Below, piece by piece: positions 7,532 through 43,348 of a DNA stretch of 64,000 nucleotides (position 1 is the first letter of the stretch; the number at the start of each line of letters is the position of its first letter). Both the position numbers and the translations under genes were made by a program. The DNA lies in assembly GCA_016214345.1 (NCBI GenBank), contig JACROR010000001.1, forward strand, positions 1,264 through 65,263, in the 5' to 3' direction. The notes beneath the pieces are model-generated. The model saw nothing but the letters and a program-made list of their open reading frames with translations. It was not told where the DNA came from and made no database searches. The stretch comes from Candidatus Niyogibacteria bacterium. Lineage in GTDB: Bacteria > Patescibacteriota > Minisyncoccia > JACROR01.

Positions 7532-7532
7532 G

Positions 7533-19224: not shown

Positions 19225-19700
19225 TTAAAAAATTACCAAAAATGAAGCCCAGGCGCTATTATTCTCCGTGCCATTATCTAACGTGATGGTGTGTTTGAGA
19301 TTCCGAGGGATCGCACTCAGCCGTTTGGCGATGATACTGTTAGTGGTCGCACTGATTTTGTCTTTCACTCTAGTGATGAAATATATTCCGGTCTTTCTTT
19401 CGAGAAGGGCGTTCATTCCCGGCTTGAGTAAGCTCAACAAATTCAGATACATACGAGACTCCTTAATACATCTAAGGAGAATGAAACAATTCAACAAGTT
19501 TAAGGGCGCCAAAGGCTTCATAATGGTATGGGACCACATTTCGCCGCCGCAGGCGGCGAGAAATTCCCTCCGCGAATCCACCAGCTGGCGGACGAAAAGG
19601 CGGCGAAGCCGCACCGATGACAATTTCAAGTTTTTCTTTGGCGGCAAATTTCAAAGACATGAATTTTTATCAAAAATCAAATGTTCTTTCGGAATTTCAA
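19225..19700 (-). mobile_element. Degraded IS30-family transposase remnant (frameshifted/truncated DDE core)
   Basis: Minus-strand ORF 19225-19647 contains ALLERKTGIYFITRVKDKISATT...PRNLKHTITLDNGTEN, matching the IS30 DDE region (...lvERksr...ktiTfDNGsEF). Upstream parts are in other frames (19472-19660) and no intact full-length transposase is present. GC here is locally higher than in the neighbours. Confidence 0.4.
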
Positions 19701-20592
19701 ATTCTGCTTTCAAGCGACGCTTGGATAAATACTGATTCGCATCCTCCGATCCTTGAATATTCAAATATTGATAGCCGAGGGAGTTTGCAATTCTCGCACA
19801 TTCTAACATAAGTGCGCGATATAAATTTCTATACTCAAAATCATTTACCAAAACATTGCATCCTAAACATTTCTGAGATATTTCACTAAATACCAGAAAA
19901 CCAATCAGTTTATTATTTTTCGAATCGTAAATACCAAAATGAATCAAGTCGCTTCGAGAATTGCAAAACATTTCGTGAGAGGCGCGGAGATCCTCTTTAC
20001 TCCAGTCATTGCGAAGATGCATATTATCTATCCACTTTTTTAAAATTTCTCCTACAATTTCAAGATTGCAAACTTCCCATCTTCGCACTTCAATTGAGTA
20101 CTCTCGGTTGAATCGCGCCTGTTCTTCACGCAAAGATTGAAAATTCGGACCTTTAAGGTCAGTAAGTTGTTTTGTGTTCAAAATCTGTTCCGGGAAAGAA
20201 TTATCGTCATATTTGGACTGGTTATTCCACCATTCATCTACACGATAGTGACGACAACCAAGTTTCAAAAGCTCTTGCTCAAGTTCCATTCCTACATTTT
20301 TTATAAAAACTGGTTTGCCCGAATTTTCAAAGCATTCTTTTGTAACAGTAGATATATTCTTTGCGCGATTATCTCCCGCGCAAGCAACAACAACAAAATT
20401 ATCCACACCTAGCTTTTTGGTAAAAATAACAATTCCATCTTCAAGCTTGCGGAAATCAAAGTAATTTCTCGTTGCTTGTAATGTATATCCATTACAAAAC
20501 TCAAAATCACAAGAATTGTTATGAAATTTATTAGCAAAATCTCGAAAAATCGGGAGAGCGTCATCAACATTTTTGCCCTTTGTTTCAGTCAT
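19651..20592 (-). CDS. Hypothetical GNAT-fold acyltransferase-like protein (FemAB / BioF2-like / DUF2156-like family)
   Basis: 313-aa AT-rich ORF. The C-terminal half (LIGFLVFSEI...YRALMLECARIANSLGYQYLNIQGS) resembles tandem-GNAT Fem/BioF2-like acyl/aminoacyl transferases. Only the ORF itself is confident. Confidence 0.35.
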   Translation of the reverse strand: MTETKGKNVDDALPIFRDFANKFHNNSCDFEFCNGYTLQATRNYFDFRKLEDGIVIFTKKLGVDNFVVVACAGDNRAKNISTVTKECFENSGKPVFIKNVGMELEQELLKLGCRHYRVDEWWNNQSKYDDNSFPEQILNTKQLTDLKGPNFQSLREEQARFNREYSIEVRRWEVCNLEIVGEILKKWIDNMHLRNDWSKEDLRASHEMFCNSRSDLIHFGIYDSKNNKLIGFLVFSEISQKCLGCNVLVNDFEYRNLYRALMLECARIANSLGYQYLNIQGSEDANQYLSKRRLKAEFEIPKEHLIFDKNSCL

Positions 20593-20822
20593 AAAAAAAT
20601 TCTTTTCCCAAAATTAAAATGCAGTTCGAGCCGATATTTTCACAGGTTCTTTGGCAGTGTTTATCGGCACGACGGAACCGCGCTTGCGGGCGGGACTTCC
20701 TCCGCCTACGGTGGCGAAATGCGTTCAAACTGTCTTAAGAATACAGAGCCGGTCAGCAAATTGCAAACACACATGATTGATTTCTTAACATTCATATGTT
20801 ATGTTAAAAAATAGTTTATTCT

Positions 20823-20851
20823 TTGAAATTTAAAAAATAAATCAATAATAT
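20823..20851 (+). promoter_or_regulatory. Sigma70-like promoter TTGAAA-N17-TAATAT for the neuA-like gene
   Basis: Near-consensus -35 at 20823-20828 and -10 at 20846-20851 with 17-bp spacer. The RBS AGGAGG at 20882-20887 precedes the GTG start at 20893. Confidence 0.5.
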
Positions 20852-20892: not shown

Positions 20893-21600
20893 GTGTACAA
20901 AAACAAGCGTATAGTTACTATTATTCCGGCTCGTGGCGGGAGTAAGGGAGTTCCTCGAAAAAATATAAAATTACTGGATGGAAAACCGCTGATTGGGTAT
21001 TGTATCGAGGTCTTAAAAAAATCTGGCGTAATCGATAGGGTTATAGTATCAACGGAAGATGACGAAATCGCAACCGTTTCCGAATCTCTCGGAGCAGAAA
21101 TTATATGGCGTCCCAAAGAGTTGGCAGCTGACACGGCATTAACAGAACCGGTCATGGAACACGCCCTCAAAGAGATTGAAAAAAAAGGATACCTGCCGGA
21201 TTATATTTCTCTTGCTCAATGCACATCGCCCTTTTTAACTGAGACAACAATACGACAAGCGGTGAATGCCGTAGTCACTAATAATTTTGATTCATGCATT
21301 ACTGTATTTTATCCTCATACGCATGAATTCAAATGGAGGAAAAGCGCGGAGAATAAAGATATTTTTATTCCGGACCACAATGTTGAATGTCGTCCAAGAC
21401 GACAAGATTTACCAAAAATATACCATGAAAATGGCGCCTTCTATATCACCACGACTGCGTTGTTCAAAAAAACTAGAAATCGCTTTGGCGGGAATCTCGC
21501 AAAAATCACTGCCGTGGAGATGAACGAAGAAGACTCCCTCCAAATTGACACTGAATTTGATTTTTGGCTCGTTGAACAAATAATTACTAAAAAGCATTAG
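20893..21600 (+). CDS. CMP-nonulosonate cytidylyltransferase (NeuA / acylneuraminate cytidylyltransferase family)
   Basis: N-terminal IIPARGGSKGVPRKNI motif diagnostic of CMP-NeuAc/Pse/Leg synthetases. GTG start with strong RBS; 235 aa. Confidence 0.8.
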   Translation: MYKNKRIVTIIPARGGSKGVPRKNIKLLDGKPLIGYCIEVLKKSGVIDRVIVSTEDDEIATVSESLGAEIIWRPKELAADTALTEPVMEHALKEIEKKGYLPDYISLAQCTSPFLTETTIRQAVNAVVTNNFDSCITVFYPHTHEFKWRKSAENKDIFIPDHNVECRPRRQDLPKIYHENGAFYITTTALFKKTRNRFGGNLAKITAVEMNEEDSLQIDTEFDFWLVEQIITKKH

Positions 21601-21668
21601 TTTGCCAAAATATATATTTTGGCAAACTAATGAAAAAACCACCGACTATGCCGGTGGTTTTATTTTGC
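21601..21668. terminator. Bidirectional terminator pair: 26-bp perfect palindrome tttgccaaaatatatattttggcaaa plus aaaaaccaccg-actatg-ccggtggtttt
   Basis: Lies between convergent genes ending at 21600(+) and 21669(-). The second hairpin has flanking A-run and T-run. Confidence 0.65.
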
Positions 21669-22610
21669 TTATTTTTTTCTTAATTTTTCCTTAATGGGAA
21701 TCTCAACGGCCAAAAGACGTTTTTCACCATCTCCTCTTGCCTCTTCCCAGAGTCTTATATCCCTCACCAAAAGTTCTAATCCTTTCGGTGCAATACTGGC
21801 CGCTTGGTCAGAACCCCACATCGTTCGATCTAGGGTAATATGCCTTTCGATCAAACAAGCGCCGCACACCACAGCCATCACTGAAGGCGCAACGCCACGT
21901 TCATGCCCACTGTAACCAATCGGCACATTAGGGAACCTCTTCTGAAGGGTTTTAATTACCCGCAGGTTAAGATCATGATCCGCTGACGGATAAGTCGCAA
22001 CACAATGCAAAATTATTAAATTCTCTTCTCCTAAAATATCTACCGCGGAAATAATTTCTTCCATTGTGCTCATTCCGGTTGACAGGATAATCGGCTTACC
22101 TTTTAAGCGTAGACACTTTAAAAGATTATGGTCAGTCAAACTGGCCGAAGCTACCTTGTAACAAGGGACTTTAAGCTCCGCCAAAAAATCAACACTGCCC
22201 AAATCCCACGGAGAAGCGAACCACACAATTCCTTTTTTCTGACAATACCTATCAATCTCTCGATATTCTTCTTTCGTAAATTCCAAGGCATATTTTAAGT
22301 CGCCATTAGTAGTGCTCGCTAAATTGGAATCAATAAGACATTTAATTCTATCTCCGGACAAAACTCCTCGCTTAATAGCGTTAGCAATAATATCTGCCGG
22401 GACATCGCGCGACTTTAATAATTCCGCTTTAGTATATACGGCATCAACTGTTCTTTTCTGAAACTTAACCATGTCACAACCGGCATCAACAGCAACGTCT
22501 ATGAGCCTCTTGGCGATTTCTACATTGCCATTATGATTGATTCCGATTTCTGCGACAATAACGCACGGACGATCTTTACCAATAATCTTATCTGCCACCT
22601 TAACTGCCAT
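21669..22610 (-). CDS. NeuB-family nonulosonate (sialic/pseudaminic/legionaminic acid) synthase, short form (C-terminal SAF domain largely absent)
   Basis: N-terminal VIVAEIGINHNG and a TIM-barrel NeuB core. 313 aa versus 357 aa for the paralogue at 31014-32087. RBS AAGGAGGA upstream. Confidence 0.75.
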   Translation of the reverse strand: MAVKVADKIIGKDRPCVIVAEIGINHNGNVEIAKRLIDVAVDAGCDMVKFQKRTVDAVYTKAELLKSRDVPADIIANAIKRGVLSGDRIKCLIDSNLASTTNGDLKYALEFTKEEYREIDRYCQKKGIVWFASPWDLGSVDFLAELKVPCYKVASASLTDHNLLKCLRLKGKPIILSTGMSTMEEIISAVDILGEENLIILHCVATYPSADHDLNLRVIKTLQKRFPNVPIGYSGHERGVAPSVMAVVCGACLIERHITLDRTMWGSDQAASIAPKGLELLVRDIRLWEEARGDGEKRLLAVEIPIKEKLRKK

Positions 22611-22757: not shown

Positions 22758-24110
22758 TCATGTTGGGTGCTGAAATTTTTGAATTATTTTAATAATTTCA
22801 TTTTCAGCGCGCACACTTGACTGACCGTCTGAATTTCCCAATAAATCTTTGAATAATTTTTTCTTACTGATCATATCATGACTAGTATATAAATCTGAAT
22901 TGAAAATATATTTTTCAAGATCTGTTTCGGTTTTTATATAATTGACCAACTCCGGATGCTCGCTAAAATAATCCCAGGGTTTATCAGTTATTAAGTCTCC
23001 AAAATAAGGCGAAATTAAAACCTTTTCAAAAATAAGCGCCTCAAGACAGGTGGTAGAATTAAAACTTATCACGGCTATAGAATTCTTGATTAAATCAAGG
23101 GTGTCGCCGATATTGGTAATTACCAGATTGTCTATGGGATCTTTAAAATTATCCGCTAAAATTTGCTTAACATATTGAAAATAATGGCCGGCAAATTTTG
23201 TTTTGATTATTACTTTTATATTTTTATTATCCGCGGCAAATTTAATAACCGATTTATGAAAATTGTAAAATCTATCTCTTATTTCTTTAATTTTATTATC
23301 ATCTTTTATAAACAAGCCGAGAAGTCTATCATCGGGGTCCGAGGAAAAACACACTACCTGCTTGCTAATATATTTTTTTTCTTTTTTCGGCATTGTAAAG
23401 TAGTAATCAAACCGCGGCATGCCAACAATTTTAGTATTATTCTCTGAAATTCCCGAGAGGGAGTTATTCAGCAACGCCCTCCTAATTTCGTTGCTGTAGA
23501 ACAAAATCTCAGCACCCCTAAATTTATAAACCTTAAATAAATCAGCCCATTCTTTTCCATACCCAGGAACAAGTAGCCCTTCTTTGTGCAGAATAATGAA
23601 AGGAATCCCATTTTTCGTACACACATCTTCCAACTCCTGTTGCTCCGGATAACCGAAATTACCAGATAAAACCGCATCAAATTTTATTAATCTGCGCAAT
23701 GCGGGAATCATCTGGCTTAAATATAAATTGTACTTTCGCTTAGCGTCACCCGCTAAATTACAAATATGATAATTTTCTTCTGTTAGCTGATTTCTCTCTG
23801 ATTCTGTCAAAAAATAATCAAAAATCATACGAAAATAATTTTTAAAAATTACAACATACTTAATGCGCCCTCCAAAATTCGCTAGCGCCTCTATGTCATT
23901 TAAAAAAACGCTCCTGCCCAAACAAAGGACCGTAAAATCGCCCCTTCTATTAACTTTGCTTGCAATCATCATAAAAATCAGGGCCGTTAATTTTGGATAA
24001 TTGATAAACAAACTAAGCTTAACGAGAAGAATAAATAGCGAGGACTTTATTTTGTGTCTTGCTTTCTTGAATATCGAACGATCTTGTATTGCTAAGATTA
24101 TTTTTTCCAT
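22758..24110 (-). CDS. Putative GT-B glycosyl/glycerophospho-transferase of the TagB/TagF / capsule-biosynthesis (KpsS-like) type; candidate nonulosonate transferase
   Basis: 450 aa and AT-rich. The C-terminal pattern ...IKTKFAGH...LVITNIGDTLDLIKNSIAVISFNSTTCLEALIFEKVLISPYFG resembles the TagF-family HP...LITDYSS...KP(v/i)i core. It is paralogous in architecture to the 39816-41315 protein. Confidence 0.4.
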   Translation of the reverse strand: MEKIILAIQDRSIFKKARHKIKSSLFILLVKLSLFINYPKLTALIFMMIASKVNRRGDFTVLCLGRSVFLNDIEALANFGGRIKYVVIFKNYFRMIFDYFLTESERNQLTEENYHICNLAGDAKRKYNLYLSQMIPALRRLIKFDAVLSGNFGYPEQQELEDVCTKNGIPFIILHKEGLLVPGYGKEWADLFKVYKFRGAEILFYSNEIRRALLNNSLSGISENNTKIVGMPRFDYYFTMPKKEKKYISKQVVCFSSDPDDRLLGLFIKDDNKIKEIRDRFYNFHKSVIKFAADNKNIKVIIKTKFAGHYFQYVKQILADNFKDPIDNLVITNIGDTLDLIKNSIAVISFNSTTCLEALIFEKVLISPYFGDLITDKPWDYFSEHPELVNYIKTETDLEKYIFNSDLYTSHDMISKKKLFKDLLGNSDGQSSVRAENEIIKIIQKFQHPT

Positions 24111-24176
24111 TTTGGCTTCTTTTTATTTTAAGATAATATATTATATGTTAGCATAAGAGAACGAAATAAAAAAAAC

Positions 24177-25205
24177 ATGAACATGGCAAAACAAAAAAAA
24201 TTCAATATCCCACGTAAAAAAGGAAAGGAGACAAATTGGAAAAATTTGAATCGTAGTATTTTATGGCGAATAAAGGCCGCGAAAAGAAAAAAAGAAACAG
24301 CAAAATATTCGGCCTTCTTTCAAAAAAAATTAAAACATTGCCCTATATGCAATAATAAACAATATCAGACTTTTGTCATCATATATGGATATAAATATGC
24401 GGAGTGTAAATCGTGTGGTCACATTTTTATGCAACCGCCGTTAGATCTAAAAGCTGTAAGACATATGTATTCTGGCGGCAAAAAATCTTCTATGCAAGAT
24501 AAGATTTATATTAATAATGAAAATCTTTTCAAAAAAAGAATTAAACAAATTGCGACGCCAAAAGTTGAATATTGTAACGGTATAATTAAAAAAAAGGGGG
24601 TATGGATTGATATAGGATGCGGAGTTGGCGAAATGCTAATTGCCGCCGAAAAAACAGGCTGGAAAGTGTTTGGAATAGAACCAGATTTAAGAGAAGTAAA
24701 ATTTGCCAAACAACACGGCTTAAATGTTGCTCAAGATTTCATAACTACGGATAATGCAGAACAATTACGAGATGCAGACGTAGTCTCTTTGATCAGCGTC
24801 CTTGAACATATAAATAATCCTTCTGAATTCTTACAAAACATAGTAAATGCATTGCCACGAAACGCGTATGTAATCATTGAAGTTCCAAGACATCCTTCAT
24901 TGTCATCTTTTGTAAACTTAGTATTCCCTAATTTAGCATACCGACACATACATTCACCGGAACATTTGCATATTTTTACAGAAAAATCATTAGCGACAAT
25001 GTTCAGTCGTGCCAGATTAAAAGCCGTCGGCATGTGGGAATTTGGCCAAGACGTATCAGATTTAATATTATTAGCAGCTGCCAATGCCTCAAAAAAAGAA
25101 AGTCAATTTATTGGCATGATCTACAAACTTGTGCCTGATTTACAAAAAGTTGTGGATGAAAAAAGCATGTCTGATACAATTTTTATAGTCACTAAAAAAT
25201 TTTAA
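24177..25205 (+). CDS. Class I SAM-dependent methyltransferase with N-terminal Cys4 zinc ribbon
   Basis: CPICNN...CKSCGH zinc ribbon. SAM motif I is VWIDIGCGVGEM, then an acidic motif II and motif III, consistent with Methyltransf_23/11. Confidence 0.75.
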   Translation: MNMAKQKKFNIPRKKGKETNWKNLNRSILWRIKAAKRKKETAKYSAFFQKKLKHCPICNNKQYQTFVIIYGYKYAECKSCGHIFMQPPLDLKAVRHMYSGGKKSSMQDKIYINNENLFKKRIKQIATPKVEYCNGIIKKKGVWIDIGCGVGEMLIAAEKTGWKVFGIEPDLREVKFAKQHGLNVAQDFITTDNAEQLRDADVVSLISVLEHINNPSEFLQNIVNALPRNAYVIIEVPRHPSLSSFVNLVFPNLAYRHIHSPEHLHIFTEKSLATMFSRARLKAVGMWEFGQDVSDLILLAAANASKKESQFIGMIYKLVPDLQKVVDEKSMSDTIFIVTKKF

Positions 25206-36000: not shown

Positions 36001-37002
36001 CTAAATTTGTATATTTTTTGTGATCTCAATCAACTGATCCTTTGTTAACCATTCTTTATTTGTGTTGCTACAATAGCAAAAATCGGGTGATAATTGTTTC
36101 CCGCTTTGTAAAAATTTACTTATATCTTCCGCATTAAATAAATCACGATTTTCTGGCAATATAACAAAATATTTATCAAGCTCAACAGCATGCCTAGACT
36201 CTTCCGAAGTAACTAGTGTTTCGTGTAACTTCTCTCCCGGTCTAATGCTGGTAAATTCTCTCTCTGCTTTCGGAATAATGGCGTCAAACAAATCTACTAC
36301 TTTCATGCTGGGAATTTTTGGGATAAAAATTTCTCCTCCTTCCATATTCATGAGACTGAAAAATACAAGTCTGAAACTTTGATCCAAGGTTATCCAAAAT
36401 CTAGTCATTCTTTGATCTGTAATATATACCTTTTTTAATTCTTTATTTCTCAATAAAGTTTCTACTATGCTGCCCCTACTGCCGATAACATTTCCATAGC
36501 GCACACAACCAAATACGGATGCGCCTCCGGTATACGCATTACCGTTGATAAATAATTTTTCAGCGCATAATTTTGTTGAACCGTAAAGATTTGCTGGCTG
36601 CGCCGCCTTATCGCTTGAAATTAATAAAACTTTTTTTACTCCTTGATCAATTGCGGCCTCTATAACATTTTGACTGCCAATAATGTTTGTTTTAACCGAT
36701 TCAAGAGGATTATATTCAAGGGTTGGCACTTGTTTTAACGCGGCCGCGTGTATTACGATATCCACACCACGAAAAGCTCTTTGCAGCCTACTCAATTCGC
36801 GAACATCGCCAAGAAAAAAGCGCAATCGATCATCATCATCTTTTATTTCAGATTGCATGTGAAATTGTTTAAATTCGTCTCTGCTAAATACAATTACCTT
36901 TTTTACAACTGTATTTTGTAACAGAAACTTCACGAAGTTTTTGCCAAAAGAACCCGTGCCACCTGTTATTAATATTATTTTATCTTTTAATAATTCATTC
37001 AT
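36001..37002 (-). CDS. UDP-GlcNAc 4,6-dehydratase (PseB/CapD/FlaA1-type, Polysacc_synt_2)
   Basis: ILITGGTGSFGKNFV Rossmann motif. Length (333 aa) and the YGSTKLCAE catalytic YxxxK match PseB-like inverting dehydratases. Confidence 0.8.
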   Translation of the reverse strand: MNELLKDKIILITGGTGSFGKNFVKFLLQNTVVKKVIVFSRDEFKQFHMQSEIKDDDDRLRFFLGDVRELSRLQRAFRGVDIVIHAAALKQVPTLEYNPLESVKTNIIGSQNVIEAAIDQGVKKVLLISSDKAAQPANLYGSTKLCAEKLFINGNAYTGGASVFGCVRYGNVIGSRGSIVETLLRNKELKKVYITDQRMTRFWITLDQSFRLVFFSLMNMEGGEIFIPKIPSMKVVDLFDAIIPKAEREFTSIRPGEKLHETLVTSEESRHAVELDKYFVILPENRDLFNAEDISKFLQSGKQLSPDFCYCSNTNKEWLTKDQLIEITKNIQI

Positions 37003-37219: not shown

Positions 37220-39043
37220 ATGAATGGAATAAAAATTCTTGGTATTGTGTGGGAAATGTGCAGTGGCGCGGCGCTTATGATAGATGGAAGGGTGATTGCT
37301 GCGGCAAGCGAAGAAAGATTCTCACGAGTAAAAAACGATGAGCGATACCCGCTACAGGCGATAGAATATGTACTAAAAGAGGGCGGGATAAAGCCTGAGG
37401 AATTAGACATAATTGCATTCGCTGGCACTATCTGGAATCCTCCATATGTTGCAACTAGACGGTACACAACATTCTCTCAAGAAGACAGGATTCGTGAGCA
37501 AAAAGAATATTGGCATCCACGCCTATATGAAAAAAGGGATGTAAAATATTTGGATATTTTCAAAGACAAAATAGACACCGACCAATATCCAGGTCCTCAG
37601 GATTGGGTACCAATCATAGATTTTCTAAAACACGACGCGAAGGAAGCATCAGACCAAAGAAAACACAACACACTGTTTTTCCAAGAAGCGCGACGATCGA
37701 TTGTCAGTAAACATTTATGCATATCTTCGGATAAAATTATTTTTATTGACCATCACAGCGCTCATGCTTTTTACGCATTTTTTGCAAGCCAAGAGAGAAA
37801 AAACAATACTTTAATCTTGACCGCTGACGCGTGGGGTGATGATGCAAACGCAACAATCAGTGTGGTGAAAGACGACAAGATTAAAAGATTGTCCGCGAGC
37901 AATAATTTTGCAGCTGCAAAGTTTTATCGTTATGTAACACTCATTTTAGGCATGAAGCCCGATGAGCATGAATATAAAGTAATGGGGCTCGCACCATACG
38001 CAAAAAAGCAACACATTGAAAAAGTATTGCAAATGTTTCAAGACACTCAATATGTGAACGGGCTTGAATTTAATTTCCACAAAAAGCCGACTGACAGCTA
38101 CTATCACTTCAAAGAATTATTTGAAGGACAAAGATTTGATACAATAGCAGGAGCATTGCAAAAATACACAGAAGATATCTTGCTTAAGTGGGCACAAAAC
38201 GCATTCGCTCTAACACAAAGCGTTGACATCTGCTTTGGTGGAGGAATTGCAATGAATGTGAAAGCAATGATGGAAATCAACTGTCTTCCTGGCGTAAATA
38301 GTCTTTTTGTGCCACCAACTCCTTCAGATGAATCACATGCGATAGGATGTATGTATGTTGCTATGTATTATGAGTGTCTGAAAAGAGGCCTGGATGTATT
38401 CAAAACAATAAAGCCCCTTTCAAACGCTTATCTTGGTCCGCGCATTACGGACGACAAACTTATCATCAACAAACGGCAAGAAGCGATTGAGGCAAATACT
38501 CCACCATCTCGCATTGCCGACCTTTTAGAGAAAGGCTATGTGATTGGTGTTGCGAGAGGCAGAAGTGAGTTTGGCGCAAGGGCTCTTGGCAACAGATCAA
38601 TTCTCGCAGACCCAAGAAATATATCTGTTGTAAGAAAAATAAATGAAATGATTAAAAGCCGAGATTTCTGGATGCCATTTGCGCCCGTCATTCTTGAAGA
38701 ACGCGCCAGCGATTATATTAATGGATATAAGAAAAACGTTGGCGCGCAATTCATGACCCTAGCATTTCAAACAACGCTTCTAGGTCAGCGAGATTTGACG
38801 GCGGGATTGCATCAAGCAGACCTAACCTCAAGACCACAGGTCTTAAAACCGGGAGTAAATCCTTTTTATGAAGAAATAATAAAGGAATTTCAAAAAAAGA
38901 CCGGGGTTGGAGGACTTCTTAATACTTCATTCAATCTTCACGGTGAACCAATCGTCCAAACCGCAGAAGATGCGATGAGGGTGTTCAATTTATCAAAACT
39001 AGATGGCCTTTTAATCAATGACGCATTAATAATGAAGCCTTGA
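37220..39043 (+). CDS. Carbamoyltransferase (NodU/CmcH family)
   Basis: 607 aa. N-terminus ILGI...AAASEERFSRVKNDERYP and the overall two-domain length are typical of NodU/CmcH O-carbamoyltransferases. RBS AAGGAGGG upstream. Confidence 0.85.
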   Translation: MNGIKILGIVWEMCSGAALMIDGRVIAAASEERFSRVKNDERYPLQAIEYVLKEGGIKPEELDIIAFAGTIWNPPYVATRRYTTFSQEDRIREQKEYWHPRLYEKRDVKYLDIFKDKIDTDQYPGPQDWVPIIDFLKHDAKEASDQRKHNTLFFQEARRSIVSKHLCISSDKIIFIDHHSAHAFYAFFASQERKNNTLILTADAWGDDANATISVVKDDKIKRLSASNNFAAAKFYRYVTLILGMKPDEHEYKVMGLAPYAKKQHIEKVLQMFQDTQYVNGLEFNFHKKPTDSYYHFKELFEGQRFDTIAGALQKYTEDILLKWAQNAFALTQSVDICFGGGIAMNVKAMMEINCLPGVNSLFVPPTPSDESHAIGCMYVAMYYECLKRGLDVFKTIKPLSNAYLGPRITDDKLIINKRQEAIEANTPPSRIADLLEKGYVIGVARGRSEFGARALGNRSILADPRNISVVRKINEMIKSRDFWMPFAPVILEERASDYINGYKKNVGAQFMTLAFQTTLLGQRDLTAGLHQADLTSRPQVLKPGVNPFYEEIIKEFQKKTGVGGLLNTSFNLHGEPIVQTAEDAMRVFNLSKLDGLLINDALIMKP

Positions 39044-39060
39044 TTAAAAAGATAGAATCT

Positions 39061-39095
39061 AAAACCACCAACATTGTTGGTGGTTTTTTTATTTA
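39061..39095 (+). terminator. Rho-independent terminator (aaaaccaccaac-attg-ttggtggttttttt)
   Basis: Perfect 10-bp stem and a 7-T run immediately after the carbamoyltransferase stop. Confidence 0.7.
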
Positions 39096-39135: not shown

Positions 39136-39741
39136 TTAAGTAAGGCTCTTTATCTTTTTTTCTTTCCATATTTGATAATTAATCGCATCGTCAAAAGATA
39201 CAATATGTCCCTTATTACTATATTCTTTGATTTTTTGGAATTCCATATCTAATAATTCCAATCTTATTTTTGGTAATTCAATCTCAAACCATGGAATATT
39301 CCTTGCGGGAGCGTTAAAAATTAAAATTTCCAATTCTGCTTCTTGCATCGCCCTCAAAAAAGTGAGATACGCCCTATATTGGTGAAAGTGTGACGCTATA
39401 AGGATGATACTTTGCCAATTATTTTCTTTAATTAATCTCATAACATTAATCGCCTGTGCCCTGGTATACAAAGACTCTACTTCTAAAATAATATTCTTTG
39501 GTTTTATACTGCACTTATCCAAAATATACTTTTTAAGCTTCTCACCATGAAAGGAGCCGATGCTATCCCCCTCCAACCCCCCTGAGATAATAATCTTATC
39601 GGCATATTTAGATTCAAAAAGTTCTATCGCCCTATCAGCGCGATAATAAAAATCCCCCTCCAATACAACAATAACATCGGAAGGAAATAAAAAATCACCG
39701 CCAACAAAAGACATTAATTGTTCTCTTTTTGATAATTTCAT
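39136..39741 (-). CDS. DUF218/YdcF-family (ElyC/SanA-like) protein
   Basis: 201 aa with the ...VVLEGDFYYRADRAIELFESKYADKIIISGG... pattern typical of DUF218. Confidence 0.55.
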   Translation of the reverse strand: MKLSKREQLMSFVGGDFLFPSDVIVVLEGDFYYRADRAIELFESKYADKIIISGGLEGDSIGSFHGEKLKKYILDKCSIKPKNIILEVESLYTRAQAINVMRLIKENNWQSIILIASHFHQYRAYLTFLRAMQEAELEILIFNAPARNIPWFEIELPKIRLELLDMEFQKIKEYSNKGHIVSFDDAINYQIWKEKKIKSLT

Positions 39742-39815
39742 ACACCTTAAAAGCTCCTATTGAATACGCGCACGAGTTGAATCCTTAAAATATATAGTAT
39801 AACATATATTTTATT

Positions 39816-41315
39816 ATGAAAGTTTGTTTTGTGCTACAAAATAGATTCGCCTACCCTGGCCACGCAATGATAAAAACCCTCAAAAAAAAATATGGGGAGG
39901 AGGAATTCTGTGGCTATGTTTATACGAGACCGAGTTTCAATTTCCTTACCTCTCAAAAAGAAATAATATATTCGCGTCTACTGCTTGATGACGATATACA
40001 TTCCAAATACAAAACTGAACAACTAGACCTCCCATACATACAATGGATAGAAAAAGAATTTGGACTTCCCAATCTGTGGGCATACGTTGAACTGGATCGC
40101 ATCGTGCGATATGGTTTATTCGTACGAGAATACCCGCACAACACTCCGCCTTATACGCACGAAGAGATGCTTCGCATTATACAAGTAAAATCAAAGGCGA
40201 TTTTGAAATTTTTGGAAGAAGAAAGGCCTGATTTTATAGTTTTTTCTGTCATGGGCGATATCGGCATGCTTCTATTGTATCATATGGCAAAAAAACGAGG
40301 CATCAAAATACTCTACATAACAGAACCGCGCATCAATGCGCAATTTACCATATCCAATTATTACAACGGAATTGATTCCATAGAAGAAGCATTCAAAACC
40401 AACATCGATGAATCATACATAAACCAAGCAAAAAAGTTCCTTGATTCATTTCGTCAAAATCCTGTTTCGCCCAACTCAATCGATACGCCGCAAGCAAGAG
40501 CAATAACAAAAAGGCAACAATTTAAATTTTTGTCTCCAAAAAGATTTATCCGTTCTTTTTTATGGACTATTCGTGTGTTTTTAGATTATGCGAAAAACAG
40601 ACACAAAAACGACTACACTGAAATAAAGCCGTGGTACTATATATTAGATCATGTAAAAAGAAAAATGAGAGTATTACGGGGTTTTAATGATCTCTACGAT
40701 AAAATTGACTTAAAAGAAGACTACGCATTTTTTCCGCTACAAGTAGAACCGGAGATAAGTAGCCTGCTACTTGCGCCATTTTATACAGACCAGTTATGGC
40801 TTGCTAAACAAATAGCCCGATCTCTTCCGATTCATTTTAAACTTTATATTAAAGAACATCCTGCAATGTTTGGCTATCGTACGCGTAGTTTTTACAAAGA
40901 ACTTAAAAAAATTCCAAATGTCAAACTTATTGACCCGTGCATTACGAGTTTCAATATCACAAAGAATGCAAAATTAATAGTTACGCAAACCGGTGGTGTT
41001 GGTTGGGAAGGCTTATTTTTCAAAAAACCAGTAATAACTTTTGGTAATATATTTTATAATATTTTACCGATGACAAAAAAATGTAAAGCGATTGAGGACC
41101 TCCCGCATATAATTAAAGAACAATTAGAAAACTTTCATTACGATGAGAAACTGCTTATAAAACTTATAGCTGCCTCTTACCAAGAGAGCGCGCATGTTGA
41201 CCTTGTGCAAATATGGGAAATTGACGGCGGTGGAAAAATGGATGAAAAAGAAAATCAACTCATGCCTTTAACAGATTTGCTAGCAAAAAAAATGGGATTA
41301 AAAAAGCCTAATTAA
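39816..41315 (+). CDS. Putative GT-B glycosyl/glycerophospho-transferase of the TagB/TagF / capsule-biosynthesis type; candidate nonulosonate transferase
   Basis: 499 aa. C-terminal IKEHPAMFGY...KLIDP...AKLIVTQTGGVGWEGLFFKKPVITFGN resembles the TagF-family core. Architectural paralogue of 22758-24110. Confidence 0.4.
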   Translation: MKVCFVLQNRFAYPGHAMIKTLKKKYGEEEFCGYVYTRPSFNFLTSQKEIIYSRLLLDDDIHSKYKTEQLDLPYIQWIEKEFGLPNLWAYVELDRIVRYGLFVREYPHNTPPYTHEEMLRIIQVKSKAILKFLEEERPDFIVFSVMGDIGMLLLYHMAKKRGIKILYITEPRINAQFTISNYYNGIDSIEEAFKTNIDESYINQAKKFLDSFRQNPVSPNSIDTPQARAITKRQQFKFLSPKRFIRSFLWTIRVFLDYAKNRHKNDYTEIKPWYYILDHVKRKMRVLRGFNDLYDKIDLKEDYAFFPLQVEPEISSLLLAPFYTDQLWLAKQIARSLPIHFKLYIKEHPAMFGYRTRSFYKELKKIPNVKLIDPCITSFNITKNAKLIVTQTGGVGWEGLFFKKPVITFGNIFYNILPMTKKCKAIEDLPHIIKEQLENFHYDEKLLIKLIAASYQESAHVDLVQIWEIDGGGKMDEKENQLMPLTDLLAKKMGLKKPN

Positions 41316-41324
41316 ACATAATTT

Positions 41325-42182
41325 TTGGACATAATATCAAAACTAAGAAAAATTTATAGAAAATTCATTCATCTGCCATGGGTAGACAAATTGATCTATG
41401 TCATTTTGGATGCATTAACCAACATATACGCGCATTCGGCTAAATTTTATTTTCCAAAAAATTATATACGAAAATGGAAATTGAATATGTTGTGGGGCAA
41501 ATATGAACCCGAAACCTACAAACTCTTCAAACACATCGTAAAATCCGGCATGGTGGTGATTGACATCGGCACGCACATCGGATATTTTACCCGCCTATTT
41601 TCAAAACTTACTAAACAGGGCGGTTTAGTCTACGCGCTGGAAGCAGACCCAGAAAATTTTTCTTTGTTGCAAAAAAACACCGCTCATTTGAAAAATGTCT
41701 GCGCAATCAAAATAGCAGTCACAGATAAAAAGGGTGAGATCAATTTCTATAGAAGCGAGAAAACCGGCTGCCACAGCACCATTCCAAATACCGAACAGCA
41801 AAAAGAAGTAATTACCGTTCTCGCCACCGATCTCGACAGTTTATTACTAGATACTGAACAGATATCGAAAATAGACCTGATCAAGATGGACATTGAAGGT
41901 GGCGAAATGGCGGCCCTCCGCGGTATGAAAAAGATCATCGGCGCAAATCCAGAGATCGCGCTCGTCGTAGAATTCAACCCGGGATGCCTAAAAATGGCGA
42001 AGGTTATACCGACCGATTTTATTAAAACATTGCGTGATCTTGGCTTTAAAATTTTCTCCATCCAATCCAAAGATCTAATAGAGATCGGGCCGCAAGAAAA
42101 CTTCCCGGAAAAATATCTCCTACCGGGAGCGACCTTCGTTAATCTATACTGCGTAAAAGGATCGGTACAGGAACGATCCTAA
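41325..42182 (+). CDS. FkbM-family SAM-dependent methyltransferase
   Basis: MVVIDIGTHIGYFT motif I and ...LIKMDIEGGEMAALRG... typical of Methyltransf_21 (FkbM). Confidence 0.8.
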   Translation: MDIISKLRKIYRKFIHLPWVDKLIYVILDALTNIYAHSAKFYFPKNYIRKWKLNMLWGKYEPETYKLFKHIVKSGMVVIDIGTHIGYFTRLFSKLTKQGGLVYALEADPENFSLLQKNTAHLKNVCAIKIAVTDKKGEINFYRSEKTGCHSTIPNTEQQKEVITVLATDLDSLLLDTEQISKIDLIKMDIEGGEMAALRGMKKIIGANPEIALVVEFNPGCLKMAKVIPTDFIKTLRDLGFKIFSIQSKDLIEIGPQENFPEKYLLPGATFVNLYCVKGSVQERS

Positions 42183-43348
42183 ACCAAAGATTCGATCACT
42201 GCGTTCAATTTGCGTCCCAATACGCGATAATCCAAACTCTGTGCGCGTACTAAAATATCTTTGGATAACTTGATTCGAAGACCCTCGTCTTTGCCGAGCT
42301 TCTCTATTTTTTTAGCAAGATCAATGTGATCATTGGGATTGAACGTCAGCGCCGATCCGGCGGTCAGCCACTCGAGCGCCCCGCCACCGGGAATTATACA
42401 AGGAATGCCAAAAGCCATCGCTTCCGTTAAAAGCGCCGAACCATATTCCATCCACCACTTGGGAAAAACGAAGATCTGCGTTGCGAGGAAAAATTCAAAC
42501 ATTTTTTCTCGCGCCACCCAGCCCGGAAATGAAAAATATTTTCCCAAGCCCAGATCGCGCACCATGCTCTCCAAACGCTCCTTGTCTGGTCCGCCGCCGC
42601 TCATCACAACGCGATATTTTTCTTTATTAGAAAGAGTGGCAAATGCTTTGATCACCAGATCGAATCCTTTTTCCGGAAACATACGTCCAGTACAAAATAT
42701 TTGGATGATATCGCAGGAACGCTGACGCCTCTCCACGAACTCATCCATAATATGATGACGCTCTATAATGCCTTTCATGTCCACAAAATCCTCTATCACA
42801 GAAGTTTTTTTGCTGTCCACCCCGAAATCAACATACATTTTCTCAACCATCGGCGTATTGAAAATAAACGCATCCAAATGATTGGCCATAGGAATACCGA
42901 TCCGGCGCTCCATAAATGATCTAATTTTTTTCTTTAAAGTTTTAAAGAAAGAAACACGCGCGGGATTGCCCGTCATATCCGCCCAACAATTAAGACGAAC
43001 GTTAAAAAATGCCGCAACGGGTTTCAGCCCGCCCAACATGCGATAAAGTCCTCCTCCATACAAAAACATATGCCCATCTATATAAAACGCGTCGGCGGCA
43101 CTTTCATATTTTTTCAACAAGCCGTAAATCCCGCTCTGCATGCTAAGTAAAGTCCCTTTGGGAGCGATATTTTCTTCCACCACTTTATACGGCAAGTCTA
43201 TGGAAATTTTATTCGCGCGTGAAAACGCCGTAACCACCGTAACATCATGCTCCTCATCCTGCAAGCTCTTTGCCTTCCAATGCAGATCAAGCACCGAACC
43301 GCCGGCGGTTTCAAAATTCAATTTTGAGGTGATTAAAATAATCCTCAC
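42179..43348 (-). CDS. Glycosyltransferase family 4 (GT-B)
   Basis: C-terminal EYGSALLTEAMAFGIPCIIPGGGALEW GT4-like motif; 389 aa. Confidence 0.75.
   Translation of the reverse strand: MRIILITSKLNFETAGGSVLDLHWKAKSLQDEEHDVTVVTAFSRANKISIDLPYKVVEENIAPKGTLLSMQSGIYGLLKKYESAADAFYIDGHMFLYGGGLYRMLGGLKPVAAFFNVRLNCWADMTGNPARVSFFKTLKKKIRSFMERRIGIPMANHLDAFIFNTPMVEKMYVDFGVDSKKTSVIEDFVDMKGIIERHHIMDEFVERRQRSCDIIQIFCTGRMFPEKGFDLVIKAFATLSNKEKYRVVMSGGGPDKERLESMVRDLGLGKYFSFPGWVAREKMFEFFLATQIFVFPKWWMEYGSALLTEAMAFGIPCIIPGGGALEWLTAGSALTFNPNDHIDLAKKIEKLGKDEGLRIKLSKDILVRAQSLDYRVLGRKLNAVIESLV

What the first reader, a model, noticed from the sequence alone, without database searches (positions are those of the whole stretch)
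19650..42200. AT-rich ~22 kb island carrying nonulosonic-acid (Pse/Leg-type) biosynthesis, bounded by an IS30-like remnant
By eye the stretch from ~19.6 to ~42 kb is markedly more AT-rich than the flanks. Lys/Asn/Ile-rich proteins and long A/T runs are seen in 22758-25205, 28434-34494 and 39136-41315, whereas 5-19 kb and 42-56 kb are GC-richer. The island starts right after a degraded IS30-family transposase remnant (19225-19700). It contains a coherent pathway: PseB-like dehydratase, NeuB synthases, CMP-cytidylyltransferases, aminotransferase, amidotransferase plus HisH/F, carbamoyltransferase and transferase candidates. This looks like a horizontally acquired glycan-tailoring cassette inserted into a pre-existing glycosylation locus.
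Basis: partly seen in the sequence, partly recalled or inferred. Interest (0 to 1): 0.55.

Follow-up and report, generated by a model that had tools for sequence, protein, structure and literature searches.

The report
Swapped-in AT-rich sialic-acid-like sugar cassette
A 22-kb AT-rich block in the surface-sugar locus of an ultrasmall groundwater bacterium (Candidatus Niyogibacteria) carries genes for a decorated sialic-acid-like sugar and was most likely swapped in from a lower-GC relative, which is an ordinary way for bacteria to vary their surface.

Summary
Unsupervised GC segmentation cuts the window at 19,621 and 41,751, giving GC 0.427 | 0.362 | 0.438. Island genes have GC3 of 0.33 against 0.46 in the flanks (p=4.5e-9). 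Codon usage, dinucleotide signature and Lys/Asn/Ile content shift as well.

Only PseB passes its curated cut-off, and no PseC, PseH or PseG equivalent is present. The core is a recurrent module of NeuB, DUF218, an unknown protein, a cytidylyltransferase and a class-III aminotransferase.

The host is a Candidatus Niyogibacteria MAG (Patescibacteria). All named homologues of two island-specific proteins are Patescibacteria, so any transfer was within the phylum.

The closest relative found (L116) is collinear through the right flank at about 78-80% identity. Identity then falls to 61% and 49%, and L116 carries a different NulO cassette in the same slot. In 12 of 56 relatives a NeuB gene lies just upstream of the Wzy_C-TPR ligase gene.

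This fits cassette replacement in a hypervariable slot better than insertion into a locus that lacked such genes.

The IS30 remnant is real but tiny, about 50 aa. No tRNA gene or flanking direct repeats were found. This is a known kind of event in an unusual host.

The parts
16990..19203 (-). Left anchor, outside the island: a 737-aa Wzy_C (O-antigen-ligase-type) plus TPR protein
   Evidence: Pfam Wzy_C plus TPR on the identical Logan gene. TIGR03097 putative O-glycosylation ligase scores 58 bits, below its cut-off. 486 related stretches were confirmed in genome contigs; all but a few of the 80 kept loci are labelled as Patescibacteria-group lineages, best 65%. GC 0.422.
19264..19410 (-). Relic of an IS30-family transposase (about 49 aa of the catalytic core) in the gap between the ligase gene and the island
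   Evidence: NCBIfam NF033563 scores 32.4 bits, E=7.4e-8, profile 152-200/267, below the cut-off of 80. The peptide ...RNLKHTITLDNGTENN... is shown. No Pfam or plasmid tblastn hit.
19537..19571 (.). Left arm of a roughly 35-nt imperfect inverted repeat. The right arm is at 20689-20721, and the pair brackets the DUF2156-like gene.
   Evidence: Local alignment score 34. It was reached in 0 of 3000 shuffles and in 0.5% of random window pairs. An independent assembly breaks at about 19.63 and 20.63 kb.
19651..20592 (-). DUF2156 / LPG_synthase_C-like protein (by my recollection an aminoacyl-transferase-type GNAT fold); first AT-rich gene
   Evidence: Pfam PF09924 59 bits. GC 0.352, GC3 0.296. No homologue in any fetched locus.
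20689..20721 (.). Right arm of the inverted repeat
20893..21600 (+). CMP-NulO cytidylyltransferase, PseF-like
   Evidence: TIGR03584 PseF 157 bits (cut-off 205.7); Pfam CTP_transf_3. 62% identical to the L007 gene in the same position.
21595..21661 (.). Perfect 38-nt palindrome (21595-21632) followed by a hairpin with a T-tail, between convergent genes; a terminator-like site
   Evidence: (I11, I1). The Logan contig ends at 21603.
21669..22610 (-). NeuB1: short NulO-synthase paralogue lacking the SAF domain
   Evidence: Pfam NeuB 257 bits; TIGR03569 249 bits covering profile 1-278/329. 66% identical to the ligase-adjacent gene of L007, and the two cluster together in the NJ tree.
22758..24110 (-). 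Candidate NulO transferase (distant BFO_1060 family)
   Evidence: NF046086 BFO_1060 59 bits (cut-off 200) and TIGR04396 38 bits. BFO_1060 is listed with the T. forsythia Pse/Leg-derivative transferases Tanf_01245 and TFUB4_00887 (PMC5420450). Homologues sit beside NulO genes elsewhere, as in L119. All named homologues are Patescibacteria.
24177..25205 (+). SAM-dependent methyltransferase
25236..27029 (-). Fused ABC exporter (MsbA/HepA/PglK-like); the last gene of the long minus-strand operon and the candidate lipid-linked-glycan flippase
   Evidence: HepA-family 342 bits, MsbA 315 bits, PglK 211 bits, all below their cut-offs. 57-63% identical to L007, L008 and L116.
27044..28369 (-). Class-III (GSA-aminomutase-like) aminotransferase
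   Evidence: Pfam Aminotran_3 151 bits. PDB hits include GSAM and aminoglycoside C-6' aminotransferases. 60-75% identical in cassette relatives.
28434..29468 (-). Radical SAM / SPASM enzyme
   Evidence: Pfam Radical_SAM plus SPASM. 61% identical in L098.
29557..30372 (-). KdsB-like CMP-sugar cytidylyltransferase
   Evidence: Pfam CTP_transf_3 125 bits
30342..30995 (-). Conserved unknown protein (HZC14_00160) that always sits between DUF218 and CTP_transf_3
   Evidence: No Pfam or NCBIfam hit. 442 homologues; all named ones are Patescibacteria apart from one labelled only 'bacterium'. AF2 model pLDDT 92.7. No PDB fold match better than E=0.18.
31014..32087 (-). NeuB2: full-length NulO synthase of the DUF218-linked clade
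   Evidence: TIGR03569 334 bits and TIGR03586 309 bits, both below their cut-offs. 70-77% identical on other contigs. Tree.
32084..33292 (-). WbuX-type N-acetyl-sugar amidotransferase (acetamidino formation)
   Evidence: TIGR03573 314 bits, above the cut-off of 203
33301..34494 (-). Methyltransferase; the lowest-GC gene (0.300)
34511..35964 (-). HisF/WbuZ-like and HisH glutaminase pair, the ammonia supply for WbuX
   Evidence: TIGR03572 266 bits (cut-off 299.7); TIGR01855 236 bits, above its cut-off of 105
36001..37002 (-). PseB, UDP-GlcNAc 4,6-dehydratase (inverting); first gene of the operon
   Evidence: TIGR03589 434.7 bits, above the cut-off of 407.75
37220..39043 (+). NodU/CmcH-type carbamoyltransferase
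   Evidence: Pfam Carbam_trans_N and Carbam_trans_C
39136..39741 (-). DUF218 protein, displaced here from its usual place next to NeuB
   Evidence: Pfam PF02698 59 bits. It lies next to NeuB in the other contigs.
39816..41315 (+). Capsule_synth (KpsC/KpsS-like) candidate ulosonic-acid transferase; the last AT-rich gene
   Evidence: Pfam PF05159 41 bits. KpsC in PDB at E=1.4e-3. 49% identical to the syntenic L116 gene, GC 0.357 vs 0.432.
41487..42182 (+). Right anchor, outside the island: FkbM methyltransferase with flank-like GC
   Evidence: TIGR01444 95 bits. GC3 0.465. Called start from Logan. 61% identical and syntenic in L116.

Best explanation
The block from 19.65 to 41.3 kb is the variable nonulosonic-acid (NulO) cassette of a surface-glycan locus of at least 55 kb in a Candidatus Niyogibacteria (Patescibacteria) genome.

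Origin (inferred). Most of the block, roughly 22.7-41.3 kb and probably also 19.65-20.6 kb, was brought in by recombination from a lower-GC Patescibacterium. It replaced an earlier cassette in a slot that lies between a conserved GT4/FkbM side and the Wzy_C-TPR ligase gene. It has not yet drifted to host composition.

Function (inferred from family assignments).
- PseB starts from UDP-GlcNAc.
- An aminotransferase acts next. Only a class-III enzyme is present here.
- The conserved NeuB2 / DUF218 / unknown-protein trio produces a nine-carbon ulosonic acid.
- The KdsB-like cytidylyltransferase activates it with CMP.
- WbuX with HisH/HisF converts an N-acetyl group to an acetamidino group.
- The radical-SAM enzyme, the methyltransferases and the carbamoyltransferase add further decorations.
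- The BFO_1060-like and KpsC-like transferases attach the sugar to a lipid-linked glycan that the flank genes build, starting with the priming phosphotransferase at 8578.
- The fused ABC exporter flips the glycan across the membrane.
- The Wzy_C-TPR ligase transfers it to a surface acceptor, possibly the adjacent Ser/Thr/Ala/Pro-rich secreted proteins.
For: Shown.
- Sharp, statistically strong compositional steps lie in intergenic gaps at both ends, and all three codon positions shift.
- The island is compositionally homogeneous internally: delta* is 15 between its halves and 54-99 against the flanks.
- The flanks belong to the same functional class but have normal GC.
- Eleven tightly packed co-directional genes run from 37002 down to 25236.
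- Host identity is Niyogibacteria.
- Cassette synteny at 46-77% identity appears on contigs with GC from 0.27 to 0.57. The best NeuB2 matches are on contigs of GC 0.29-0.38.
- In the NeuB tree, window NeuB2 groups with the DUF218-linked clade, not with the ligase-adjacent NeuB of L001, L102 or L103.
- L116 is collinear through the right flank, and identity then falls stepwise (79% at the GT4, 61% at FkbM, 49% at Capsule_synth). After that L116 has a different cassette containing DegT.
- Flank orthologues in L116 have equal GC, whereas the island alleles are 7 points lower in the window.
- A NeuB-family gene lies upstream of the ligase in 12 of 56 relatives and downstream in 0 of 38.
- The same core module directly abuts the ligase in L112.
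- The same module forms an AT-rich island in a contig whose flanks have GC 0.61-0.72 (L091).

Family assignments come and from PMC5420450. Genomic islands and Patescibacteria-to-Patescibacteria gene transfer are reported in PMC12455944.
Against: - No close relative (above about 80% identity throughout) was available, so the timing and direction of transfer are inferred, not observed.
- There is no integrase, tRNA gene or flanking direct repeat, and only a 49-aa IS30 relic.
- PseF-like and NeuB1 (20.9-22.6 kb) look resident: they have 62-66% orthologues in the same position in L007.
- The ABC exporter is equally AT-rich in L116 (0.367), so part of the low GC could be gene-specific.
- Relatives show a mild GC dip in the same slot, for example L006.
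- The pathway as encoded lacks a DegT aminotransferase, an obvious N-acetyltransferase and a PseG/LegG-type hydrolase. The product and even its completeness are therefore unknown.
- Only 64 kb of the genome was seen, so the genome-wide GC baseline is assumed from the flanks.
Confidence: 0.6

Rival explanations
1. The cassette is native and vertically inherited. On this view its low GC reflects gene-specific constraints or local mutational bias in a fast-evolving accessory region, not transfer.
For: NulO genes occupy the same slot in many relatives. The ABC exporter is equally AT-rich in L116. Relatives show mild dips in the same slot. No intact mobility machinery is present.
Against: Neighbouring glycan genes of the same class have normal GC. 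The steps are abrupt and lie in intergenic gaps. GC1 and GC2 and the amino-acid composition shift too. Capsule_synth and PseB orthologues in L116 have host-like GC, although the L116 flanks have the same GC as the window's flanks. NeuB2 belongs to a different clade from the NeuB genes of the nearest ligase relatives.
Confidence: 0.2
2. The island was acquired from outside Patescibacteria (for example Bacteroidota, Campylobacterota or archaea) as an IS30-mobilised composite element.
For: An IS30 relic sits at the exact left GC boundary. A distant BFO_1060 (Tannerella) family match exists. The core module also occurs in a high-GC, probably non-CPR contig with a Maf-type domain protein (L091).
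Against: Every named homologue of the two island-specific proteins searched is from Patescibacteria, apart from one labelled only 'bacterium'. The module abuts the Patescibacteria-type Wzy_C-TPR ligase in other genomes. There is no second IS copy and there are no terminal repeats at the right end.
Confidence: 0.1
3. The GC step is an assembly or binning chimera that joins two populations.
For: The source is a MAG contig. An independent assembly of run SRR12113407 is fragmented at about 19.63, 20.63 and 21.60 kb, so it does not span the left junction.
Against: The independent 41.9-kb Logan contig spans the right junction and 20 kb on either side with identical proteins. The break at 21603 coincides with a perfect 38-nt palindrome. 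The Logan pieces abut or overlap and match at 100%. The same kind of cassette lies next to the same ligase and GT4/FkbM genes in other genomes.
Confidence: 0.05

Closest known systems
Variable central regions of O-antigen / capsule / glycosylation-island loci (low-GC cassettes exchanged by recombination between conserved flanking genes)
   Same: An AT-rich, operon-dense sugar-biosynthesis block sits between conserved flanking genes. Identity to a relative collapses at the boundary (79% to 49%). Relatives carry alternative cassettes in the same slot. The distribution is patchy.
   Different: The host is a Patescibacterium with a small genome and, as generally assumed for this group, no outer membrane. 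The anchor is a Wzy_C-TPR fusion rather than genes such as galF/gnd or kps. The exchange partners appear to be other Patescibacteria.
Tannerella forsythia general protein O-glycosylation with a terminal Pse5Am7Gra or Leg derivative (Tanf_01245 / TFUB4_00887 / BFO_1060 transferases)
   Same: A strain-variable NulO module is coupled to a dedicated roughly 450-aa transferase and a methyltransferase next to the CMP-NulO genes (PMC5420450). An amidotransferase for an acetamidino group is present here (WbuX). S/T-rich surface proteins are plausible acceptors.
   Different: The match to the BFO_1060 family is only 59 bits against a cut-off of 200 and covers the C-terminal part. T. forsythia has a canonical PseC or LegC (the paper's pseC and legC knock-outs), and this window has none.
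Canonical pseudaminic-acid pathway PseB-C-H-G-I-F (Campylobacter/Helicobacter)
   Same: There is a PseB equivalog above its cut-off, a NeuB-family condensing enzyme and a CTP_transf_3 activating enzyme.
   Different: No DegT-type PseC, no PseH and no PseG are present. The synthase and cytidylyltransferases score below the PseI and PseF cut-offs. The extra conserved partners (DUF218, the unknown 217-aa protein, a class-III aminotransferase and a radical-SAM/SPASM enzyme) are, to my knowledge, not part of the canonical pathway.
Genomic islands in Patescibacteria (PMC12455944)
   Same: The block is compositionally deviant, and the most likely donors are other Patescibacteria. [quoted passage not shown]
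   Different: In the passages retrieved, that study highlights translation, transcription and restriction-modification genes. The terms 'polysaccharide', 'glycosyltransferase' and 'sialic' do not occur in its main text.

Membership tests
Pseudaminic acid biosynthesis (PseBCHGIF) | PseB: inverting UDP-GlcNAc 4,6-dehydratase | tested here: met
   Gene 36001-37002 scores 434.7 bits on TIGR03589, above the cut-off of 407.75
Pseudaminic acid biosynthesis (PseBCHGIF) | PseC: DegT/DnrJ/EryC1-type C4 aminotransferase | tested here: not met
   No DegT-family hit was found for any of the 61 ORFs scanned. Only a class-III aminotransferase is present (27044-28369). Related cassettes elsewhere do carry DegT.
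Pseudaminic acid biosynthesis (PseBCHGIF) | PseH N-acetyltransferase and PseG UDP-sugar hydrolase | tested here: not met
   No PseH, PseG, GNAT or Hexapep hit in the window. The candidates for substitution (DUF2156-like, DUF218, the unknown 30342 protein) are untested.
Pseudaminic acid biosynthesis (PseBCHGIF) | PseI synthase and PseF cytidylyltransferase at equivalog level | tested here: inconclusive
   NeuB2 scores 309 on PseI (cut-off 340) and 334 on NeuB (cut-off 400). The 20893 gene scores 157 on PseF (cut-off 206). The 29557 gene matches only KdsB-like models.
Legionaminic acid biosynthesis (LegBCHGIF) | LegB dehydratase, LegC aminotransferase, LegH acetyltransferase and LegG 2-epimerase/hydrolase | tested here: not met
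   TIGR04180 LegB scores only 63 bits on PseB (cut-off 475). There is no DegT and no Hexapep. Epimerase_2 gives only 20.6 bits on gene 39816.
Classical genomic island | Compositional deviation with sharp boundaries | tested here: met
Classical genomic island | Integrase or transposase, tRNA target and flanking direct repeats | tested here: not met
   Only a 49-aa IS30 relic is present. There are 0 tRNA genes, and no boundary direct repeats stand out from chance-sized matches.
Classical genomic island | Patchy distribution and phylogenetic incongruence among relatives | tested here: met
   12 of 56 relatives have NeuB upstream of the ligase. NeuB2 falls in a clade different from that of the nearest ligase relatives. 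L116 has a different cassette. The trees are NJ without support values.
IS30-family insertion sequence | Complete DDE transposase with terminal inverted repeats | tested here: not met
   The match covers profile 152-200 of 267 only, at 32 bits against a cut-off of 80. No element-bounding IRs were identified. The 35-nt IR pair found brackets a different gene.
Lipid-linked glycan assembly with ABC flippase and Wzy_C ligase (PglK/PglL- or WaaL-like logic) | Priming polyprenyl-phosphate glycosylphosphotransferase, GTs, flippase and Wzy_C-domain ligase in one locus | tested here: met
   Gene 8578-9957 scores 372 bits on TIGR03025, above its cut-off. GT4 and GT2 genes are present. The ABC exporter is and Wzy_C. 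The flippase and ligase are assigned at family level only.
Lipid-linked glycan assembly with ABC flippase and Wzy_C ligase (PglK/PglL- or WaaL-like logic) | Identified acceptor (protein, lipid or wall polymer) and transfer activity | not testable with these tools
   The only lead is the adjacent S/T/A/P-rich secreted proteins.

The most novel reading that the evidence does not exclude
Patescibacteria widely encode a non-canonical nonulosonic-acid pathway whose conserved core is NeuB, DUF218, a 217-aa protein with no recognisable family or solved fold, a cytidylyltransferase and a class-III aminotransferase. This core is physically coupled to a phylum-typical Wzy_C-TPR ligase. If so, these ultrasmall episymbionts would coat their surface proteins or envelope with highly decorated, frequently swapped sialic-acid-like sugars: acetamidino, carbamoyl and methyl groups, plus an amino group installed by the radical-SAM/aminotransferase pair. 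Such sugars could govern host attachment or phage evasion. The window would then be one snapshot of that exchange.
Probability: 0.35. Interest if true: 0.7.

Novelty: new member of a known kind. Interest (0 to 1): 0.4.

Why it matters
As a genomic event this is ordinary: a low-GC sugar cassette exchanged in the variable part of a surface-glycan locus.

The host makes it worth recording. The window devotes at least 55 kb to surface glycans in a lineage known for reduced genomes. The cassette type recurs across Patescibacteria next to a characteristic ligase.

Full-text searches found no paper that mentions both nonulosonic acids and Patescibacteria; the 36 papers that hold 'sialic acid' and 'Patescibacteria' did not, among the 12 listed, concern NulO biosynthesis. 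If these cells do display variable sialic-acid-like sugars, that bears on how episymbionts recognise hosts and escape phages.

The conserved DUF218 plus unknown-protein pair is also a concrete target for finding missing or alternative NulO biosynthetic steps.

Tried and rejected
- Exact-protein look-up of PseB found nothing. Other window proteins did locate the same genome in Logan run SRR12113407 and in an NCBI MAG.
- Rfam at gathering threshold gave no hit in the window, so the GC-rich intergenic pieces at about 19.5 and 20.65 kb are not a known RNA.
- The tRNA scan found none.
- The repeat search found no island-bounding direct repeats, only short matches of chance size and terminator hairpins.
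- Pfam and a plasmid tblastn of the IS30 ORF gave nothing. tblastx and blastn of the two intergenic pieces against all fetched loci matched only themselves.
- The TETRA z-score correlation on 10-kb pieces was too noisy to discriminate (0.33-0.59 everywhere). I relied on GC3, RSCU and delta* instead.
- Finer segmentation found no robust sub-blocks inside the island. The idea that the left 3 kb is resident therefore rests on synteny with L007, not on composition.
- Literature searches for NulO or the O-antigen ligase together with CPR returned nothing relevant.
- I considered a group-2-capsule-like (KpsMT) export route because of the Capsule_synth hit. I rejected it because the transporter is a fused MsbA/PglK-type half-transporter and a Wzy_C ligase is present.

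Full report

Yes. Per-kb GC is 0.32-0.42 between 20 and 42 kb and 0.40-0.48 on both sides. An entropy-based segmentation given no coordinates puts its two strongest change points at 19,621 and 41,751. The statistics are 185 and 120, while the maximum in 200 Bernoulli null sequences was 14.2. The resulting segments have GC 0.427, 0.362 and 0.438.

The shift shows at gene level in all three codon positions. GC3 is 0.333 vs 0.459 (p=4.5e-9), GC1 0.441 vs 0.483, and GC2 0.322 vs 0.367. It also shows in amino-acid content (K+N+I 24.1% vs 19.1%), in the density of A/T runs, and in synonymous codon usage. RSCU correlates at 0.90 between the two flanks but at only 0.67 and 0.51 between island and flanks.

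The dinucleotide signature is very uniform within the island (delta* = 15 between its halves). It is 54-99 away from the flank pieces.

The step falls at 41.4-41.55 kb, in the gap between the Capsule_synth gene (ends 41315) and the FkbM gene. An independent gene call starts FkbM at 41487, and the gene has flank-like GC3.

**2. What is encoded?**

Family scans of 61 ORFs show that almost the whole window from about 5 kb to 64 kb is surface-glycan biosynthesis.

- Left flank: a priming polyprenyl glycosylphosphotransferase, GT4 enzymes, epimerases, and a 737-aa Wzy_C + TPR ligase.
- Right flank: GT4, GDP-mannose dehydratase, a C-methyltransferase, heptose-pathway enzymes (GmhA, GmhB, HddA-like), a B12-radical-SAM enzyme, and AsnB-type amidotransferases.

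In window order these are:

- a DUF2156/LPG_synthase_C-like protein
- a PseF-like cytidylyltransferase
- a short NeuB paralogue
- a distant BFO_1060-family transferase
- two methyltransferases
- a fused MsbA/PglK-like ABC exporter
- a class-III aminotransferase
- a radical-SAM/SPASM enzyme
- a KdsB-like cytidylyltransferase
- a conserved unknown protein
- a full-length NeuB
- WbuX with HisF and HisH
- PseB
- a NodU-type carbamoyltransferase
- a DUF218 protein
- a KpsC-like Capsule_synth protein

Eleven of these, from PseB at 37002 down to the ABC exporter at 25236, form one tightly packed minus-strand array.

BFO_1060 is listed with the Tannerella forsythia transferases Tanf_01245 and TFUB4_00887. 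Knock-outs of those two genes implicated them in adding a Pse or Leg derivative to S-layer O-glycans (PMC5420450). The match here is distant: 59 bits against a cut-off of 200.

**3. Pse/Leg-type?**

Only in part. PseB passes its equivalog cut-off (434.7 vs 407.75). WbuX and HisH also pass theirs.

NeuB2 falls below both the NeuB and PseI cut-offs, and both cytidylyltransferases fall below PseF. No ORF in the window matches a DegT-type aminotransferase (PseC/LegC), a PseH/LegH acetyltransferase, or a PseG/LegG hydrolase or epimerase.

The aminotransferase present belongs to the GSA-aminomutase / aminoglycoside C-6' aminotransferase class.

**4. Whose genome is it?**

The island proteins are recorded in NCBI as HZC14_00130 and HZC14_00160 of a 'Candidatus Niyogibacteria bacterium' MAG, on a 67,983-bp contig.

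The scan with the ligase protein confirmed 486 related stretches. All but a few of the 80 kept loci are labelled as Patescibacteria-group lineages, and the best is 65% identical.

The same sequence occurs in an independent Logan assembly of run SRR12113407. One 41.9-kb contig covers window 21.6-63.5 kb and so spans the right boundary. Short contigs end at about 19.63, 20.63 and 21.60 kb. The last of these breaks coincides with a perfect 38-nt palindrome.

**5. Was it horizontally acquired?**

Five lines of evidence bear on this.

(a) Function alone does not explain the composition, because the flanks are glycan genes too and have normal GC.

(b) A metagenome scan with NeuB2 found 16 contigs at 61-77% identity. 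They carry the same neighbourhood: PseB, NeuB, DUF218, the unknown protein, a cytidylyltransferase, often the class-III aminotransferase, and sometimes the radical-SAM enzyme, carbamoyltransferase, methyltransferase, WbuX/HisHF and ABC exporter. L098 has nearly the whole set in one block. Locus GC ranges from 0.27 to 0.55 (0.57 in L112), and the best matches lie on contigs of GC 0.29-0.38.

(c) The host's nearest relatives by the ligase (L001 at 65%, L103 at 62%, L102 at 54%) have NeuB genes only 35-36% identical to NeuB2. These fall in a different clade of an NJ tree.

(d) The best relative found is L116, a Parcubacteria-group MAG from the same aquifer project. It is collinear with the window's right flank:
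- 46887 at 49%
- 45671 at 66%
- 44861 at 63%
- GMD at 78%
- 43348 at 55%
- GT4 at 79%
- FkbM at 61%
- Capsule_synth at 49%

Two extra genes sit between the GT4 and FkbM in L116. After Capsule_synth, L116 continues with a different NulO cassette: ABC exporter, a second Capsule_synth, PseB at 62%, and DegT. Flank orthologues have the same GC in the two genomes (0.44-0.45). The window's Capsule_synth and PseB are 7 points lower than L116's, 0.357 and 0.350 against 0.432 and 0.423.

(e) The same core module appears as an AT-rich patch (GC 0.41-0.49) inside a contig whose flanks have GC 0.61-0.72. There it sits beside a protein with a Maf-type (MptE-like) domain (L091).

Together these support an origin in a lower-GC lineage.

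Every named homologue of the two island-specific proteins searched is from Patescibacteria, apart from one record labelled only 'bacterium'. The names include Nealsonbacteria, Staskawiczbacteria, Minisyncoccia, Falkowbacteria and Buchananbacteria. The exchange was therefore within the phylum, in line with a survey of HGT in aquifer Patescibacteria (PMC12455944).

**6. Insertion or replacement?**

NulO genes are a recurrent occupant of this slot.

- In 12 of 56 species-level genomes with at least 5 kb upstream of the ligase, a NeuB-family gene lies within 10 kb upstream, nearly always co-oriented. In 0 of 38 does one lie downstream.
- In L007, a short NeuB (66%) and a PseF-like gene (62%) abut the ligase exactly as at 20.9-22.6 kb in the window.
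- In L112, the NeuB / DUF218 / unknown / aminotransferase / cytidylyltransferase module directly precedes the ligase, which is followed by MurB, SecA and Obg.

So the locus did not gain a new capability. One cassette allele was most likely exchanged for another, and the result is a mosaic. The PseF-like/NeuB1 pair may be resident.

**7. Mobility signatures**

The IS30 remnant is real. It scores E=7e-8, and the peptide ...ERKTGIYF...RNLKHTITLDNGTENN... resembles, as I recall the family, the region around the second catalytic Asp. But it covers only about 49 of 267 profile positions and lies below the family cut-off. There is no tRNA gene, integrase or boundary direct repeat.

A new detail emerged at the left edge. 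A roughly 35-nt imperfect inverted repeat (19537-19571 and 20689-20721) brackets the single DUF2156-like gene. Its alignment score was reached in 0 of 3000 shuffles. The independent assembly breaks near both arms. This hints at a small, possibly polymorphic IR-bounded unit at the left edge, but that remains unproven.

**8. Mechanism**

The following is inferred except where a call is cited.

- PseB makes the 4-keto-6-deoxy intermediate from UDP-GlcNAc.
- Amination follows. Only the class-III enzyme is available in this window.
- The invariant NeuB2 / DUF218 / unknown trio yields the nine-carbon acid.
- The cytidylyltransferase makes the CMP-sugar.
- WbuX with HisH/HisF forms an acetamidino group.
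- The radical-SAM/SPASM enzyme together with the aminotransferase could install an additional amino group. This suggestion rests on my recollection of radical-SAM dehydrogenase plus aminotransferase pairs in aminoglycoside pathways.
- The carbamoyl- and methyltransferases add further decorations.
- The BFO_1060-like and KpsC-like enzymes transfer the sugar to a lipid-linked glycan.
- The ABC exporter flips the glycan, and the Wzy_C-TPR protein ligates it to an acceptor.

Two secreted proteins rich in Ser/Thr/Ala/Pro are encoded immediately beside the ligase and are conserved there in relatives. One has a G14 linker and a peptidoglycan-binding domain. They are plausible acceptors.

**9. The unknown protein**

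The 217-aa protein at 30342-30995 has 442 homologues and 35 invariant residues, including a PCFYNQDWY motif. Its AlphaFold model is confident (pLDDT 92.7, pTM 0.91). It has no PDB fold match better than E=0.18. Its fixed place between DUF218 and the cytidylyltransferase makes it a candidate for a missing pathway step.

**10. Verdict**

The block is a foreign-composition cassette, but it represents intra-phylum replacement in a hypervariable slot. It is non-canonical rather than plainly Pse/Leg-type, and the IS30 relic is of unproven relevance.
- This is a known kind of event in an unusual host. Interest is moderate (0.4).
- The more novel reading is a Patescibacteria-wide alternative NulO pathway tied to the Wzy_C-TPR ligase. 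The evidence does not exclude it, and it is worth testing.

Noticed in passing
window 19537-19571 and 20689-20721 (bracketing 19651-20592): A roughly 35-nt imperfect inverted repeat flanks the single DUF2156/LPG_synthase_C-like gene. Both arms lie in short GC-rich patches, and an independent assembly of the same sample breaks at about 19.63 and 20.63 kb. It may be a small IR-bounded, population-polymorphic unit next to the IS30 relic.
   Followed up: partly
window 30342-30995 (-): A conserved 217-aa protein with no Pfam or NCBIfam family. It has 442 homologues; the named ones are Patescibacteria apart from one labelled only 'bacterium'. It carries an invariant PCFYNQDWY motif. Its AlphaFold model is confident (pLDDT 92.7), with no PDB fold match better than E=0.18. 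It always sits between DUF218 and CTP_transf_3, next to NeuB.
   Followed up: partly
window 15250-16203 (-) and 16232-16867 (-): Two secreted proteins rich in Ser/Thr/Ala/Pro lie directly beside the Wzy_C-TPR ligase gene and are conserved there in relatives (L001-L003, L009, L102). One has a run of 14 glycines, A/P/T-rich linkers and a PG_binding_1 domain. Both have unusually high GC2 (0.55-0.58). They are candidate glycosylation acceptors.
   Followed up: partly
window 21595-21661: A perfect 38-nt palindrome is followed immediately by a GC-rich hairpin with a T-tail, between the convergent PseF-like and NeuB1 genes. The independent assembly contig ends inside the palindrome. A similar hairpin lies at 39046-39093.
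   Followed up: partly
window 46887-48716 (-): A 609-aa protein with no Pfam or NCBIfam hit sits inside the right-flank heptose / C-methyl-sugar block. A 607-aa gene is conserved (49%) and syntenic in L116.
   Followed up: no
window ~5000-64000: At least 55 kb of contiguous surface-glycan genes lie in a Patescibacteria genome. They include a heptose pathway (GmhA, GmhB, HddA-like), GDP-mannose dehydratase, a sugar C-methyltransferase, a B12-radical-SAM methyltransferase-like enzyme and an AsnB-type amidotransferase (60818-62647). This is a large investment for a lineage with reduced genomes.
   Followed up: partly
window 62111-64000: Segmentation at a lower threshold flags a second drop to GC 0.39 at the window's end. 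It includes a methyltransferase gene (62657-63424) with GC 0.355 and GC3 0.316.
   Followed up: no
L091 3400-9750 (Ga0118677_10002522): The same core module (CTP_transf_3, DegT, NeuB, DUF218, the unknown protein, a methyltransferase, PseB) lies at GC 0.41-0.49 between flanks of GC 0.61-0.72. It is followed by a 795-aa protein with an MptE-like (Maf-type) domain and an AMP-binding domain, and by a protein with PP-binding and TPR regions. This looks like a clear AT-rich island in what seems a non-CPR host.
   Followed up: partly
L116 11172-21170 (JACOYO010000001.1): The closest relative found has two extra genes (a CTP_transf_like gene and a 269-aa unknown) between the GT4 and FkbM genes. In the slot occupied by the window's island it carries an alternative NulO cassette containing DegT.
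   Followed up: partly
window 6566-8441 (-): The 302-aa nucleotide-sugar dehydrogenase-like ORF (7533-8441) matches only profile positions 68-278 of 413 and overlaps the next epimerase ORF by 35 nt. Relatives have a similarly short homologue beside the same epimerase, so this is probably a conserved short form rather than a pseudogene.
   Followed up: partly
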